Assembly: GCF_044704955.1 (NCBI RefSeq)
Contig: NC_091980.1
Span: 129,518,001-129,582,000 of the forward strand
Source: Pristiophorus japonicus
Lineage: Eukaryota
Direction of reading: 5' to 3'
DNA: 64,000 bases
Part shown: positions 10,946 to 60,736 of the stretch, piece by piece
How positions within the stretch are numbered: position 1 is the first letter of the stretch
Layout of the letters: every line of letters starts with the position of its first letter
Translations under genes and position numbers: made by a program
Notes under the pieces: generated by a model
What the model was told of the DNA's origin: nothing
Databases searched by the model: none
What the model saw: only the letters and a program-made list of their open reading frames with translations

Positions 10946-11018
10946 GTTTGAGGTTGGTTAAATGTTATCTTGGTACTTCTATAAAATTTATACTTCAGAA
11001 AAAATAAACACCACTAAC

Positions 11019-13645
11019 ATGGCTTCTCAAGTGCATCAGAACTACCACCAGGACTGTGAGGATGCTGTCAACAAGCAGATCAACATGGAGCTCTATTCCT
11101 CCTATGTTTATCTCTCTATGGTGAGTTTTGTGTTTTTGCCATTTCACAATGGAGACTATGTAATGTGAATTTATCAAATCCTGTGCTGTACCCTGCCCAC
11201 CTATTTCTCTCTGTTGCGCTGCCCCCCTCCCCTAGCCCAATCTATGCAGTGAACTTACTTTTAAAGCTATAATGTGAAATCATTTATCTTCCTGTGTACT
11301 CATTAACAAACTGTCTCTGTTCCTTGTAGCAGCTGTATCATCATCTGATATTGAATCTTGATTCTTTCCTGGGCTCTTGAGCTTGAAGTTTATCTAGAAT
11401 GCATTCTGCACTCAATGCGAGGAATTCAGAATTTGTTTTCTCATTCTAAATCACTCCATGGACTTTCCTTACATTGCTGGTTCAATGGGTGATGTCATAA
11501 AAATACAGCTGGGCCATTTAGGAGGGAAGTTAGGAGATATTCTTTCCCACAAGTGTGGTGGAAATCTAAAACACTTTCTTTCCCAGCCATCCCTCACCTC
11601 CACAGGGGGAGGATGGGAAGAAAGTGTTACAAATGCTTCTGCTTCCCTCCTGTTCCTAGTGTTTCTAACCTCTTAATTTTAAATACCAGTTTGTATCCTT
11701 CTGTCTTTCCTCTCTCTGTCTTTGCTTTATTGGTGATAAAGGCTTGATGAATTGTCTGTACTCAGTGACATCTCCCTTAACCCATCTGCTTTCCTACTCT
11801 ATGAACTTCACCAAGCACCTCAAATTCTGAGGGGTTTTCATAACTTTTATTCTGTGGCATCTGGTTCTTACAAGTTTTGATGGTGCTAAATTCAAGTTGC
11901 TTGTGGTAGTTTAATTCTTTGGCATGACTGGAGCTAGTAAAACTCATTTTGTTTTTCTCTTCTTTGTATGATATTTATGCACTGTGACTAGATCTCTACT
12001 TTAATGGGGTTGCTCGGTGTTCCAATACTGCCCCTCAACTGGCCTGAACATTAGATCTGTGTCAATAAACAATTATTATTAGTGTGCTAATAATAACCAG
12101 GGTATAAATCTTGTTAGAATTCCTTCACTAATTTTGAGCACTACAAATAATATTGTGTGCGAAGACTAAGGTTCTAATTTATCAAATCTGAATTGGTGAT
12201 CATGGAATGATGCAACACAGGAGGCCATTCAGTCTATTGTCTGTCGCTGACTGTTTGGTGGAGCGATACAACTCGTCCACTCTGTTCCCATTGCCTTGCA
12301 AATCACTAAGTTTCCCTTTTGTTGGAGGTGAGATTATCCACTATCTTTACCAGGTTAGTTGTGTAGGGGCTAGTTTCCATAACTACATACAAGTTCAATG
12401 AGACTGAGCCCTTGAAAGCAAGAGCAATGAGCTTGGCTTTATGTACAATGCCCATGATCATGGGTCTACCTTGCAATAAACTACTCTTCTGATCTCTCCG
12501 CAGTCCTTCTACTTTGACCGGGATGACGTTGCCCTGCGTCACTTTGCTGAGTTCTTCAAGGAGCAGTCACATGAGGAACGTGAACATGCTGAGAAACTGA
12601 TGAAATTCCAGAATCGACGTGGAGGCCGGGTTATCTTGGCGGACATCAAGGTTTGGCTCCATAAACGAGGGGCCTTCTGTCTGGCTCCCCTTAAACTGAA
12701 TGTTCCCAATACATTCTCTAAAGCGGTTGGTTCCAATTTATAGCATAGAAACCAGCCATTTGGACAAACTGGTCTATGCTGGTGATCAGGCTCCAGACAT
12801 CATCTCCCACCTTACTTTGTCTTGCAACATATCCTTCTGTTAATTTTTCCCAGGTGTACTTATTAAGCTCCCCCTTAAATACATCTGTGCTATTCACCTG
12901 ATCAATTTGACTCCAGTGGTTGATGGCTTAATGCAGTAATTCTATATTCTAACACATTGCTTCATGGTATCCTAGAATTCTGATTGCATTTTTTTCAGCC
13001 CTAATTCCTTCAATACATTGTAAGTGAACATGAGAATTTCCTCTTCAGAAACCAGAGCAGGATGAGTGGCGCAATGGTCTGGAGGTGATGCAGAGAGCTC
13101 TGCAGATGGAGAAGAATGTGAACCAGAGTCTGCTGGATCTGCACAAACTCTCCACTGGGAGAACCGACCCTCATGTAAGTTCCTCATGCTTTAATGTGGG
13201 CCTTTGGCTAAGTTGGAACCTTGCTGTCCTTGAACCTAATTTAAAAAGATATCCATGCCCAATAGTTGTGTTGTCTTTTATGGGGTAGATATTGTAAATG
13301 TGTCCCTGTGATCCCAGCACCTCTTGTACAGCAAGTTTTTATCAATTTCAATTGCACCACTTAACTATCCTCTTAGTTCAAGAGGATTAAAATCCAAACT
13401 CTTCAGGGGTAACCTCCAATGTTCCTTGATATCTGCTACTGGCCATAACTCATTTCCCTCTTCTCCAGTTATGTGATTTCCTGGAGACCCACTACTTGGA
13501 TGAACAAGTGAAGATGATCAAGAAGCTTGGAGATCACATCACCAACCTGAAGAGGCTGGGAGCCCCTGAGAATGGCCTGGGAGAGTACCTGTTTGACAAG
13601 CACACCTTGGGGGAGAGTGATGGAAGCTTGTGTTTATGTAATTGA
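11019..13645 (+). CDS. Ferritin heavy/middle-type subunit, copy B; join(11019-11120,12504-12650,13049-13174,13469-13645); 183 aa including a 7-aa C-terminal extension
   Basis: [93 protein letters not shown]...[18 protein letters not shown]...[18 protein letters not shown] introns; ferroxidase residues equivalent to human H E27, Y34, E61, E62, H65, E107, Q141 present; aataaa at 13728. Confidence 0.93.
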
Positions 13646-14229
13646 GACTCTGACCTACTTTTGACTTAGTACAGGCTAAGAGACCTGGGCTCTTGATGTG
13701 AAATGTAATTTACAGTATTGGACTGTAAATAAAATGTCCAATATTGGATTGGTTTTCTCTCCTTGCAAATTTGATTGGTTGCTTATTTTCTATTTATCAT
13801 AACTTGTTACAGTCCCAATATTGCACAAGGCTATACAATAGTCTTGCCCTGGGATTCAGTCATAGAATGCTAACAGCACAGGAGGCCATTCAGCTGGTTG
13901 AGCCTGTGCTGGCTCTCAGCAAGAACACTTCAGCAAGTTCCACTCCCATGCACTTTCCCTGTAGCCCTGTAATTTTTTTTTTCCTTCAGGTGCTTGTCCA
14001 ATTCCATGATTCAATCTACCACGACCACCCTCTCAGGCAGTGCAGTCCAGATATTAACCACTCCCTGCATAAAAGTTTTTCCTGAAGTCAGTTGTGGTTC
14101 TTCTGCCAATTGCCTTAAATCTGTCTGCTGGTTGTCTACCCTTCTGCAGGTGGGAACAGTCCTATAATTTTTTTTTTTTTGCTGTGGTAATTTAAATATT
14201 CATGACATATATTCATAAAAACATAAATA

Positions 14230-58020: not shown

Positions 58021-58096
58021 AGTTTGATATTTGGTTAAATGTTATTTTTGTACTTCGACAAAGTTTATACTTCAGAAGAAAAAACACATGACTAAC

Positions 58097-60736
58097 ATGG
58101 CTTCTCGAGTGTGTCAGAACTACCACCAGGACTGTAAGGATGCTGTCAACAAGCAAATCAACATGGAGCTCTATTCCTCCTATGTTTATCTCTCTATGGT
58201 GAGTTTTGTGTTTTTTGGTACTTCACAATGGAGACTATGGAATGTGAATTTATGAAATCCTGTGCTGTATCCAGCCCACCTCTTTCTCGCTGCTGCCCCT
58301 GCCCCCAATCTATGCAGTGAATTCACTTTTAAAGCTATAATTTATCTTCCTGTGTACTCATTAACAAACTCTCTGTTCCTTGCAGCAGCTGTACCATGTT
58401 CTGATATTGAATCTTAATGACTCTTTCCTGGGCTCTTGAGCTTGAAGTTTATTTGGAATGCTTTCTGCTCTCAATGTGAGGAATTCAGAATTTGTTTCCT
58501 CCATTCTAAATCATTCCATGGACTTTCCTTACATTGCCAGTTCAATGGGTGATGTCATAAAAATACAGCTTCTCCTGACTTCCCTCCGAAATGGAAGTAT
58601 TCTTTCCCACAAATGTGGTGGAAATCTGCTACACTTTCTTTCCCAGCCATCCCTCACCTCCACTGGGAGGATGGGATGAAAATGTTACAAATCTTTCTGC
58701 TTCCCTCCTGTTCCTAGTGTTTCTAACAATTTTTTAAATACTAGCTTGTGCCCTTTTTTGTCTTTCCTCTAACTTTCTTTGCTTTATTGGTGGTAAAGGC
58801 TTCATAAATTGTCTGTACTCAGTGGCCTCTCCCTTAACCCCACTGCTTTCCTACCCTGTGAACTTCGCCGAGCACCTCAAATTCTGAGGGGTTCTCATAA
58901 CTTTTATTCCATGGCATCTGGTTCTCAAATGTTTTGGTGTTAAATTCAAGCTGCTTGTGGTTTTAATTCCTTGGCATAACTAGCTAGTAAAACTCAACTA
59001 GTGTTTTTTTTTCTATATGAATTCTGCACTGTGACTAGATCTCTACTTTTAAGGGGGTTGCTCAGAGTTACAATACTGCCCTTCAACTAGTCTGCACACA
59101 ATAGATCTGTGTCAATAAACAATGATTATTGGAGTGTGCTACTGGTGACCAGGATATCAATCTTGTGGCAATTCTTTCACTAATTTCCAGAGCTGCAATG
59201 AATATTGGGTGCCAAGATTTAAGTTTCCAGTTTTGAGCATGTTCAATCAAAGCTGAATTGGTGATCGTGGAATGATGCTGCACAGGAGGCCATTCAGTCC
59301 ATTGTGCCTCGCTGTCTGTTGGGTGGAGCGATACAACTCCTCCACTCTTCCCATAGCCCTGCTAATCATTAAGTTTCCATTTGCCAGTTTCCCTTTTGCT
59401 GGAGGTGAGATTATCCACTATCTTTACCAGGTTAGTTGTGTTGGGGCTATTTTCCATAACTACATAAAAGTTCAATGAGACTGAGCTCTTAAAGCCAAGC
59501 CCATTGCTCTTGCTTTCATATACAATGCCAATTATAATGGGTCTACCTTGCATAAACAACTACTCCGCTGATCTCTCCGCAGTCCTTCTACTTTGACCGG
59601 GATGATGTTGCCCTGCGTCACTTTGCTGAGTTCTTCAAGGAGCAGTCACATGAGGAACGTGAGCATGCTGAGAAACTGATGCAATTCCAGAATCGACGTG
59701 GAGGCCAGATCATCTTGGCGGACATCAAGGTTTGGCTCTATAAATGAGGGGCCTTCTGTCTGGCTCCCCTTAGACTGATTGATCCCAAATCATTCTAAAG
59801 CAGTTGGTTCCAATTTAAACCACAGAAACCAGCCATTTGGATAAACTAGTCTATGCTGGTGATCAGACTCCAGACATCACCTCCCACCTTGCTTTATCTA
59901 GCAACCTATCCTTCTCCCTTTTCCCCACATGTTCTGATTTAGCTCCCCCTTAAATACATCTGTGCTATTCACCTGATCAATTTGACTCCAGTGGTTGATG
60001 GCTTAATGCAGTATTTCTATATTCTAACACATTGCTTCATGGTCTCCTAGAATTCTGATTGCATTTTTTCAGCCCTAATTCCTTCAATACATTGTAAGTG
60101 AACATGAGCATTTCCTCTTCAGAAACCAGAGCAGGATGAGTGGAGCAATGGTGTGGAGGTGATGCAGAGAGCTCTGCAGATGGAGAAGAATGTGAACCAG
60201 AGTCTGCTGGATCTGCACAAACTCTCCACTGGGAGCACTGACCCTCATGTAAGTTCCTAATGCTTCAATGTGGGCCTTTTGGGTAGGTTGTAGGTGGTGG
60301 AACCTTGCTGTCCTTGAACCTAATTTAAAAAGATCTCTATGCCCAATAGCTTTTGTGTTGACTATTTTTTGGGGGTAGATATTGTAAATGTGTCTGTGAT
60401 CCCAGCACCTTTTTGTACAGCAAGTTTTCATCTTAATGCGGTGCAGTAATTCCAGAAATTTCAATTGCACCACTTGACTATCCTCCAGTTCAAGAGGATT
60501 AAAATCCAAACTCTTCAGGGGTAAGCTCCAATGTTCCTTCATATCTGCTGCTGTCATAACTAGTTTCTCTCTTTCAGTTGTGTGACTTCCTGGAGACCCA
60601 CTACTTGGATGAACAAGTGAAGATGATCAAGAAGCTTGGAGATCACATCACCAACCTGAAGAGACTGGGAGCACCTGAGAATGGCCTGGGAGTGTACCTG
60701 TTTGACAAGCACACCTTGAGGGAAGAGAGTGACTGA
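58097..60736 (+). CDS. Ferritin heavy/middle-type subunit, copy F; join(58097-58198,59583-59729,60123-60248,60578-60736); 177 aa (in-frame upstream ATG at 58088)
   Basis: [132 protein letters not shown]; all GT-AG; ferroxidase residues intact; aataaa at 60828. Confidence 0.94.

What the first reader, a model, noticed from the sequence alone, without database searches (positions are those of the whole stretch)
10960..58100. Amplified ferritin family whose iron-responsive elements are all destroyed
Seen: each of the four copies with a 5' UTR has an IRE relic at the cap-proximal position, about 40 nt after the TATA box. C (18085) reads C-TTCAA-CAAGGT-TTAGA, F (58053) C-TTCGA-CAAAGT-TTATA, B (10976) C-TTCTA-TAAAAT-TTATA, and D (32135) GTTCTTG-AATTGTG-CAGTAA-TATAC. 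Established: vertebrate H, M and L ferritin IREs are C-TTCAA-CAGTGN-TTGAA type hairpins, and IRP1/2 binding needs the CAGUGN loop and a paired upper stem. Both are broken here, including in intact genes B and F, while promoters and coding exons stay well conserved. Inference: a dosage-amplified ferritin array freed from iron/IRP translational repression, functionally analogous to IRE-less mammalian FTMT, perhaps for bulk, tissue-specific or immune iron sequestration.
Basis: partly seen in the sequence, partly recalled or inferred. Interest (0 to 1): 0.8.

Follow-up and report, generated by a model that had tools for sequence, protein, structure and literature searches.

The report
Giant shark ferritin array lacking IREs
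This stretch is part of a shark cluster of several hundred iron-storage (ferritin) genes whose sampled copies all lack the usual RNA switch that ties ferritin production to cellular iron, which would suit bulk iron stocking in the ovary or egg.

Summary
The window holds 6 ferritin copies (2 intact) from a 5.6-Mb tandem array of roughly 350 copies in a shark genome. None of 150 sampled array 5' regions passes SIREs-style rules; the genome's two IRE-bearing single ferritins pass. The IRE was not destroyed copy by copy. B, C and F belong to promoter type I (123 of 150), which shares one inherited altered state, loop CAAAGU. Its consensus matches the genome's IRE at 16/20 (5 of 20,000 shuffles). 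D belongs to type II (27 of 150), which has no relic; its "relic" is chance. The coding sequence is under purifying selection (dN/dS 0.19) and the ferroxidase site is mostly intact. An intronless retrocopy shows germline transcription with the relic inside the mRNA. Shark ferritin clusters with ovary-specific expression are already reported (bioRxiv 2024.09.09.611499); their IRE loss was not found in my searches. Best reading: a dosage-amplified, iron-uncoupled ovarian/oocyte ferritin, analogous to IRE-less snail yolk ferritin more than to FTMT. Loss of IRP binding and the tissue are untested here.

The parts
2208..2949 (+). Copy A: ferritin exons 3-4 and polyA signal only (5' half absent)
10777..10941 (+). 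Copy B type I promoter: CCAAT/ATTGG boxes at 10777, 10844, 10873; TATA-like box at 10933
   Evidence: 0.89 mean consensus frequency across 112 distinct type I promoters
10973..10992 (+). Copy B IRE relic (loop UAAAAU, two stem mismatches); not significant alone, homologous by family alignment
11019..13733 (+). Copy B: intact 4-exon ferritin (11019-11120, 12504-12650, 13049-13174, 13469-13645), 183 aa with a 7-aa C-terminal extension; polyA signal 13728
18042..18101 (+). Copy C TATA box (18042) and best-preserved IRE relic in the window (18082-18101, loop CAAGGU)
18123..23490 (+). Copy C: pseudogene (stop in exon 1, exon-1 donor lost, CR1/LINE-like insert in intron 1)
32102..32168 (+).
32169..34569 (+). 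Copy D: pseudogene (11-nt deletion in exon 2)
46418..47159 (+). Copy E: exons 3-4 only; duplicate of the A-bearing segment (1-8787 vs 43938-53008, about 91% identity)
57852..58069 (+). Copy F type I promoter (TATA-like box 58009) and IRE relic (58050-58069, loop CAAAGU, two stem mismatches)
58097..60833 (+). Copy F: intact 4-exon ferritin (58097-58198, 59583-59729, 60123-60248, 60578-60736), 177 aa; B-F segments are 86% identical over 6.2 kb

Best explanation
The window is a slice of the cartilaginous-fish ferritin array, a lineage of cytosolic H/M-like subunits amplified by birth-and-death tandem duplication to several hundred copies. Shown: the copies lack a canonical IRE; the type I copies inherited one altered IRE (loop CAGUGU to CAAAGU, weakened upper stem, lost lower stem) before their amplification; type II copies have no relic; about two thirds of complete copies are intact and under purifying selection; some copies are transcribed in the germ line. 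Inferred: IRP1/2 no longer represses these mRNAs, so output is set by transcription (multi-CCAAT/TATA promoter) times gene dosage. Ferritin is then made in bulk in the ovary, most likely the growing oocyte, whatever the free iron level, to stock and detoxify iron for large yolky eggs. The single-copy IRE-bearing ferritins on C14 and C19 keep iron-sensing homeostasis.
For: Array size and span. No functional IRE: 0 of 150 C4 5' regions pass SIREs motifs 1-22 plus stem rules, 2 of 2 controls pass (rules); Rfam IRE_I 0 of 16 array loci, 3 of 3 control loci; 7 exact IRE cores genome-wide, none on C4; 1 array copy with a CAGAG loop, stem broken. Single ancestral change and homology. Function of the protein: 27 of 42 complete C4 genes intact, 23 of 27 with all ferroxidase residues (residue list recalled); dN/dS 0.19 over 25 distinct CDS. 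Germline transcription: 3 of 5 processed copies found are array-type; the C3 copy starts inside the relic and matches B/F-like genes at 132/140. Spliced array-type contigs in one run of a relative. Ovary-specific expression of the shark ferritin cluster reported in 10.1101/2024.09.09.611499 (passage). IRE-less yolk ferritin in snails (PMC10799875, passage). Two other sharks' gene models that read through TATA to ATG show no IRE-coded peptide.
Against: No binding or reporter data. The C1-G5 pair is mostly kept (C 103 and G 95 of 120), and in Y3H a G3U change only slightly lowered IRP1 binding, so residual binding is possible for consensus-type copies. Ovary expression comes from other shark species and one sentence of a preprint; the cell type is unknown. 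The shark ovary sits in haematopoietic epigonal tissue (recalled), so 'ovary' RNA need not be oocyte RNA. Only 150 of roughly 350 5' regions were read, chosen with a bias to well-conserved copies. 15 of 42 complete copies are broken, and near-identical blocks repeat at about 130 and 260 kb spacing, so part of the count may be very recent duplication or assembly redundancy.
Confidence: 0.6

Rival explanations
1. IRE-less, dosage-amplified ferritin for innate immunity or antioxidant defence, made in leukocytes of the ovary-associated epigonal organ or broadly, like the fthl27 tandem expansion of hadal snailfish.
For: Tandem ferritin expansion with ROS protection in snailfish (PMC10746142, passages). 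Epigonal tissue surrounds the shark ovary (recalled). Same sequence evidence for IRE loss.
Against: Retrocopies need germ-line or early-embryo mRNA. The shark cluster was reported as ovary-specific, whereas the snailfish gene is highly expressed in most tissues.
Confidence: 0.15
2. The type I element is a weakened but still working IRP site: a C-AAA-G pseudotriloop that raises the threshold of iron control or titrates IRP by sheer mRNA mass.
For: 11 of 11 bases of the 5' half are identical to the IRE although dS to IRE-bearing genes is 1.5 or saturated. C1/G5 mostly kept; the consensus stem passes the SIREs stem rule; CAAUGC and CAGAGN are separately tolerated loops; G3U is mild in Y3H.
Against: CAAAGU is not among the 22 motifs. 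IRE-register pairs hold in only 64% of cells and the C-A mismatch is nearly fixed (6 of 86 paired). The consensus does not fold as an IRE. The relic is no better conserved (0.84) than its flanks (0.80, 0.78) or the promoter (0.89). Unstable upper stems bound weakly or not at all in Y3H.
Confidence: 0.12
3. Mostly non-adaptive turnover: an unstable tandem locus in which the IRE decayed because control no longer mattered in a redundant, tissue-restricted gene, and copy number carries no dosage function.
For: 15 of 42 complete copies broken, plus truncated copies such as A and E. Species-specific clustering in the tree shows rapid turnover.
Against: dN/dS 0.19; promoters conserved; array-type proteins in many copies in at least ten other shark species.
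Confidence: 0.13

Closest known systems
Shark FTH1/FTL-annotated ferritin clusters (Greenland and great white shark; bioRxiv 10.1101/2024.09.09.611499)
   Same: Hundreds of clustered, mostly full-length ferritin copies, ancient in sharks. The window's proteins fall in a clade with array-type proteins of many sharks.
   Different: That text has 0 occurrences of 'iron', 'IRE' or 'UTR'. It calls the copies FTL and FTH1, whereas here they form their own chondrichthyan clade apart from the IRE-bearing genes. Orthology to that exact cluster was not tested by synteny.
Snail yolk ferritin (Biomphalaria, Lymnaea; PMC10799875)
   Same: Ferritin without a 5' IRE tied to egg provisioning, beside IRE-type soma ferritins.
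   Different: Single gene, secreted with a signal peptide and a 42-aa insertion. The shark proteins are 174-194 aa cytosolic-type subunits without either, and are massively amplified. Convergent, not orthologous.
Mammalian FTMT
   Same: H-like ferroxidase site; no IRE control (recalled).
   Different: FTMT is intronless, single and mitochondrially targeted. Array genes keep 4 exons, have no leader and carry an IRE relic.
Vertebrate IRE-regulated H/M ferritins (C14 and C19g1 in this genome; salmon H1-2, M1-3 in PMC4117605)
   Same: 4-exon structure, 72-74% protein identity, ferroxidase residues, TATA-proximal position of the element.
   Different: They carry Rfam IRE_I hits of 45-46 bits; the array has none.
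Hadal snailfish fthl27 tandem expansion (PMC10746142)
   Same: Tandem dosage amplification of a ferritin heavy-like gene.
   Different: 14 copies, broad expression; IRE status not seen in the passages read.

Membership tests
IRE (Rfam RF00037 / SIREs) | Apical loop CAGWGH or one of the 22 SIREs motifs with a passing stem | tested here: not met
   0 of 150 array 5' regions pass, 2 of 2 controls pass
IRE (Rfam RF00037 / SIREs) | Covariance-model match | tested here: not met
   None in the window at E<=10; 0 of 16 array loci, 3 of 3 controls
IRE (Rfam RF00037 / SIREs) | 5-bp upper stem with C8 bulge (at most 1 mismatch and 2 G-U) | tested here: inconclusive
   Consensus and C meet the tolerance; B and F do not; 64% of cells paired over 87 haplotypes
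IRE (Rfam RF00037 / SIREs) | IRP1/2 binding and iron-responsive translation | not testable with these tools
   Needs EMSA or a reporter
IRE relic (homology) | Similarity above chance at the homologous TATA-proximal position | tested here: met
   Type I (B, C, F): 16/20, 5 of 20,000 shuffles; aligns to the C19g1 TATA-to-loop region. Not met for type II (D): 10/20
H/M-type ferritin subunit | Ferroxidase residues E27, Y34, E61, E62, H65, E107, Q141 (human H numbering, recalled) | tested here: met
   B, F and 23 of 27 intact C4 genes; aligns without gaps to human H chain
Chondrichthyan array ferritin clade | Groups with other sharks' multicopy ferritins | tested here: met
   24-row clade including Callorhinchus, support 98/90, excluding C14 and C19g1-g3; no teleost or mammalian rows in the tree
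Shark ovary-expressed ferritin cluster | Ovary-specific expression | not testable with these tools
   No run on record as RNA was listed for this stretch
FTMT | N-terminal mitochondrial leader, intronless gene | tested here: not met
Snail-type yolk ferritin | Signal peptide and 42-aa insertion | tested here: not met
   Proteins begin directly with the ferritin N-terminus and align without insertion

The most novel reading that the evidence does not exclude
Sharks evolved a vertebrate counterpart of invertebrate yolk ferritin: a supergene of hundreds of ferritin copies, released from IRP control, that loads iron into giant eggs. The IRE stayed functional long after this lineage arose (relic 80% identical while synonymous sites are near saturation) and was lost at the start of the amplification, possibly more than once (point changes in type I, replacement in type II). 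IRE loss would then be the enabling step for dosage amplification to pay off.
Probability: 0.4. Interest if true: 0.72.

Novelty: new variant of a known kind. Interest (0 to 1): 0.55.

Why it matters
The 5' IRE is treated as a hallmark of intron-containing vertebrate ferritin genes (PMC4117605). Here the large majority of a vertebrate's ferritin genes lack it. This gives the already noticed but unexplained shark ferritin clusters a regulatory rationale and a testable function (iron provisioning of eggs), provides a natural mutant series for IRP binding, and cautions against reading shark ferritin copy number as a somatic longevity or ferroptosis trait.

Tried and rejected
Alternative conserved hairpin over the relic (UUUGUUG/CAACAAA): 75% of cells paired but almost no two-sided changes and mean z -0.5 over 87 haplotypes; rejected. 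Upstream untranslated exon with a canonical IRE: no perfect-stem canonical IRE in the window; 13 such hits in 702,741 C4 bases, none within 1.5 kb upstream of a sampled ATG, and the + strand hits checked lie in intron 1; the C3 retrocopy is collinear from relic to ATG. A C23 pattern hit was not a ferritin. Expression: no RNA holder listed for this stretch; run X1 is only guessed to be RNA, is from a relative of unrecorded tissue, and did not cover the UTR. A metagenome scan for other sharks' DNA gave 3 loci, none of array type. IRE-coded peptides in N-terminal extensions: 0 canonical hits among 200 stored proteins and one relic-type hit, labelled with the same species as the closest proteins; only two other species' models span the UTR, so this is weak. 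Earlier scan notes: none. No dedicated covariance model was built. Ten paper searches found no report of IRE loss in shark ferritins; subscription journals and bioRxiv supplements were not visible. A second Greenland-shark genome paper noting an FTH1b expansion is recalled only and was not found.
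Full report
What is in the window. Self-comparison and exon mapping give six ferritin copies on the + strand. B (11019-13645) and F (58097-60736) are intact four-exon genes of 183 and 177 aa. C has a stop and a lost splice donor in exon 1, D has an 11-nt deletion in exon 2, and A and E are exons 3-4 only. 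Rfam finds no IRE in the window at E<=10.

The array. The window is G000:C4:129,518,001-129,582,000 of a 5.9-Gb genome. The closest named proteins are shark ferritins, the best labelled Pristiophorus japonicus. A search with B exon 2 gave 370 candidates, of which 150 were scored, all on C4 between 127.80 and 133.40 Mb. Exon 1 gave 347 candidates; 148 of the 150 scored were on C4. Sampled exon-1 positions span 5.62 Mb, and nine 10-kb probes beyond the ends held no ferritin exon. 'About 350' is thus a rough candidate count, not a curated gene number; near-identical blocks recur at about 130 and 260 kb spacing. Of 42 complete C4 genes I could assemble, 27 are intact and 23 of those keep all ferroxidase residues (residue list recalled, register checked against the human H chain). 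Mean dN/dS among 25 distinct intact CDS is 0.19.

IRE status. The genome has a working comparison set: Rfam IRE_I hits of 45-46 bits precede a ferritin on C14 and one on C19. I collected 150 array 5' regions out of roughly 350, chosen from the best exon-1 and promoter-pattern hits and so biased to conserved copies. I applied the SIREs rules as published (PMC2896125, part 1 of 3 read; motif table from PMC12230718 passages). None of the 150 passes; both controls pass. Rfam agrees: 0 of 16 array loci, 3 of 3 controls. Genome-wide patterns cover unsampled copies in part. There are 7 exact IRE cores, none on C4. Of 36 matches for a CAGWR loop 20-50 nt before a ferritin-like start, 1 is in the array and its stem is broken. 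Of 19 matches to a hybrid pattern, 18 are array copies, all with CAAAGT.

Relic or chance. The array has two promoter types. Type I (123 of 150; B, C, F) has the consensus TTG-C-TTCAA-CAAAGT-TTAGA, 16/20 identical to the genome's IRE core, reached by 5 of 20,000 dinucleotide shuffles. Its promoter also aligns to the C19 IRE gene from the TATA box through the loop (score 33; best of 300 shuffles 32). This is one inherited change amplified afterwards, with later drift. Copy by copy the signal is weak: C p=0.02, F p=0.035, B p=0.29. Type II (27 of 150; D) scores 10/20 (3749 of 5000 shuffles), so D's relic is not real. A Y3H preprint (10.1101/524991, parts 1-2 of 3 read) found G3U only slightly lowered binding, while unstable upper stems bound weakly or not at all. 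Loss of IRP control is therefore likely but not shown.

Origin and timing. In a 48-row tree the array proteins form a clade with multicopy ferritins of other sharks and one chimaera protein (98/90), apart from the C14 gene and three C19 genes, with within-species clustering (no teleost or mammalian rows). At least four array-type copies lie on C19 beside the IRE-bearing gene, an IRE-less ferritin with a degenerate ferroxidase site, and one with a mitochondrial-type leader. A horn-shark gene model fuses array-type genes to the leader-bearing gene. I infer the lineage arose at that locus. dS from the array to the IRE-bearing genes is 1.5 or saturated, yet the relic is 80% identical. I infer the IRE was kept by selection for most of the lineage's history and lost shortly before the type I expansion. 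Today it is no more conserved (0.84) than its flanks (0.80, 0.78) or the promoter (0.89). Two gene models from other sharks that read in frame from TATA to ATG look type II-like and encode no IRE-derived peptide; this is thin evidence.

Expression. A splice-junction pattern found 5 processed copies, 3 array-type and 2 from the C14 gene. The C3 copy begins inside the relic, runs on to the ATG and matches B/F-like genes at 132/140. So array mRNA exists in the germ line or early embryo and contains the relic. One run from a relative, only guessed to be RNA, gave exon-restricted contigs spliced at the same junctions.

Mechanism and comparison. Most likely (0.6): transcription-and-dosage-driven bulk ferritin in the ovary/oocyte, uncoupled from IRP, stocking iron for large eggs while the C14 and C19 genes keep feedback control. 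It works like snail yolk ferritin, which also lacks an IRE (PMC10799875 passages), but it is not a member of that family (no signal peptide or insertion). It is not FTMT, which is intronless and targeted (PMC11719527 passages). Ferritin mRNA is abundant in vertebrate ovaries generally (PMC1488847 passages), and salmon H and M ferritins all keep IREs (PMC4117605 passages). Rivals: immune/antioxidant expression in epigonal tissue (0.15; cf. PMC10746142 passages), neutral turnover (0.13), a weakened but active IRP site (0.12).

Verdict. The array and its ovary link are known in sharks. The array-wide IRE loss, its single inherited origin in type I and the two promoter types were not found in ten paper searches, which miss most subscription journals. 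New variant of a known kind; interest 0.55.

Noticed in passing
L129:522-716 and on (G000:C19:93,128,522-93,141,730, +): Intron-containing, IRE-less ferritin with a GC-rich promoter and a ~32-aa Arg/Leu/Ala-rich N-terminal leader resembling a mitochondrial targeting peptide; similar leaders in sawfish and horn shark proteins. A possible intron-bearing mitochondrial ferritin, unlike the intronless mammalian FTMT; targeting not tested.
   Followed up: partly
G000:C19:93,109,390-93,121,556 (-), L133/L135/L136: Intact IRE-less ferritin with a degenerate ferroxidase centre, sharing 17 nt around the TATA box with the array promoter; L-like or FTHL17-like in character.
   Followed up: partly
L002-L005 (G000 C10, C12, C17, C18): Four dispersed ~95-nt copies of the extreme 5' end of the C19 IRE-ferritin mRNA, each with a perfect IRE and ending at the same T-rich point; 5'-end rather than 3'-end retro-fragments are unusual.
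   Followed up: partly
L142 (G000:C6:252.378 Mb): Processed copy of the C14 ferritin in which the IRE's 5' upper stem and loop are deleted.
   Followed up: no
G000:C4 129.08, 129.34 and 129.58 Mb; 132.77, 132.90 and 133.03 Mb: Near-identical blocks of the array recur at ~260 kb (one inverted; includes the window's C, D and F) and ~130 kb spacing: very recent segmental duplication or assembly redundancy.
   Followed up: no
P0003, P0151, P0156, P0159 and others: Several shark gene models of 264-267 aa carry a duplicated exon 2-3 unit; probably mis-joined tandem copies, but recurring in three genera.
   Followed up: no
window 25,900-28,000 and 36,900-44,500: Decayed LTR-retrotransposon-like (integrase-like) repeats in both orientations between copies C and E; CR1/LINE-like segments at 19,200-20,800 and 54,500-56,100.
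   Followed up: no
P0092, P0152, P0198: Shark-type ferritin proteins deposited under Aeromonas and Salmonella names, likely contamination.
   Followed up: no
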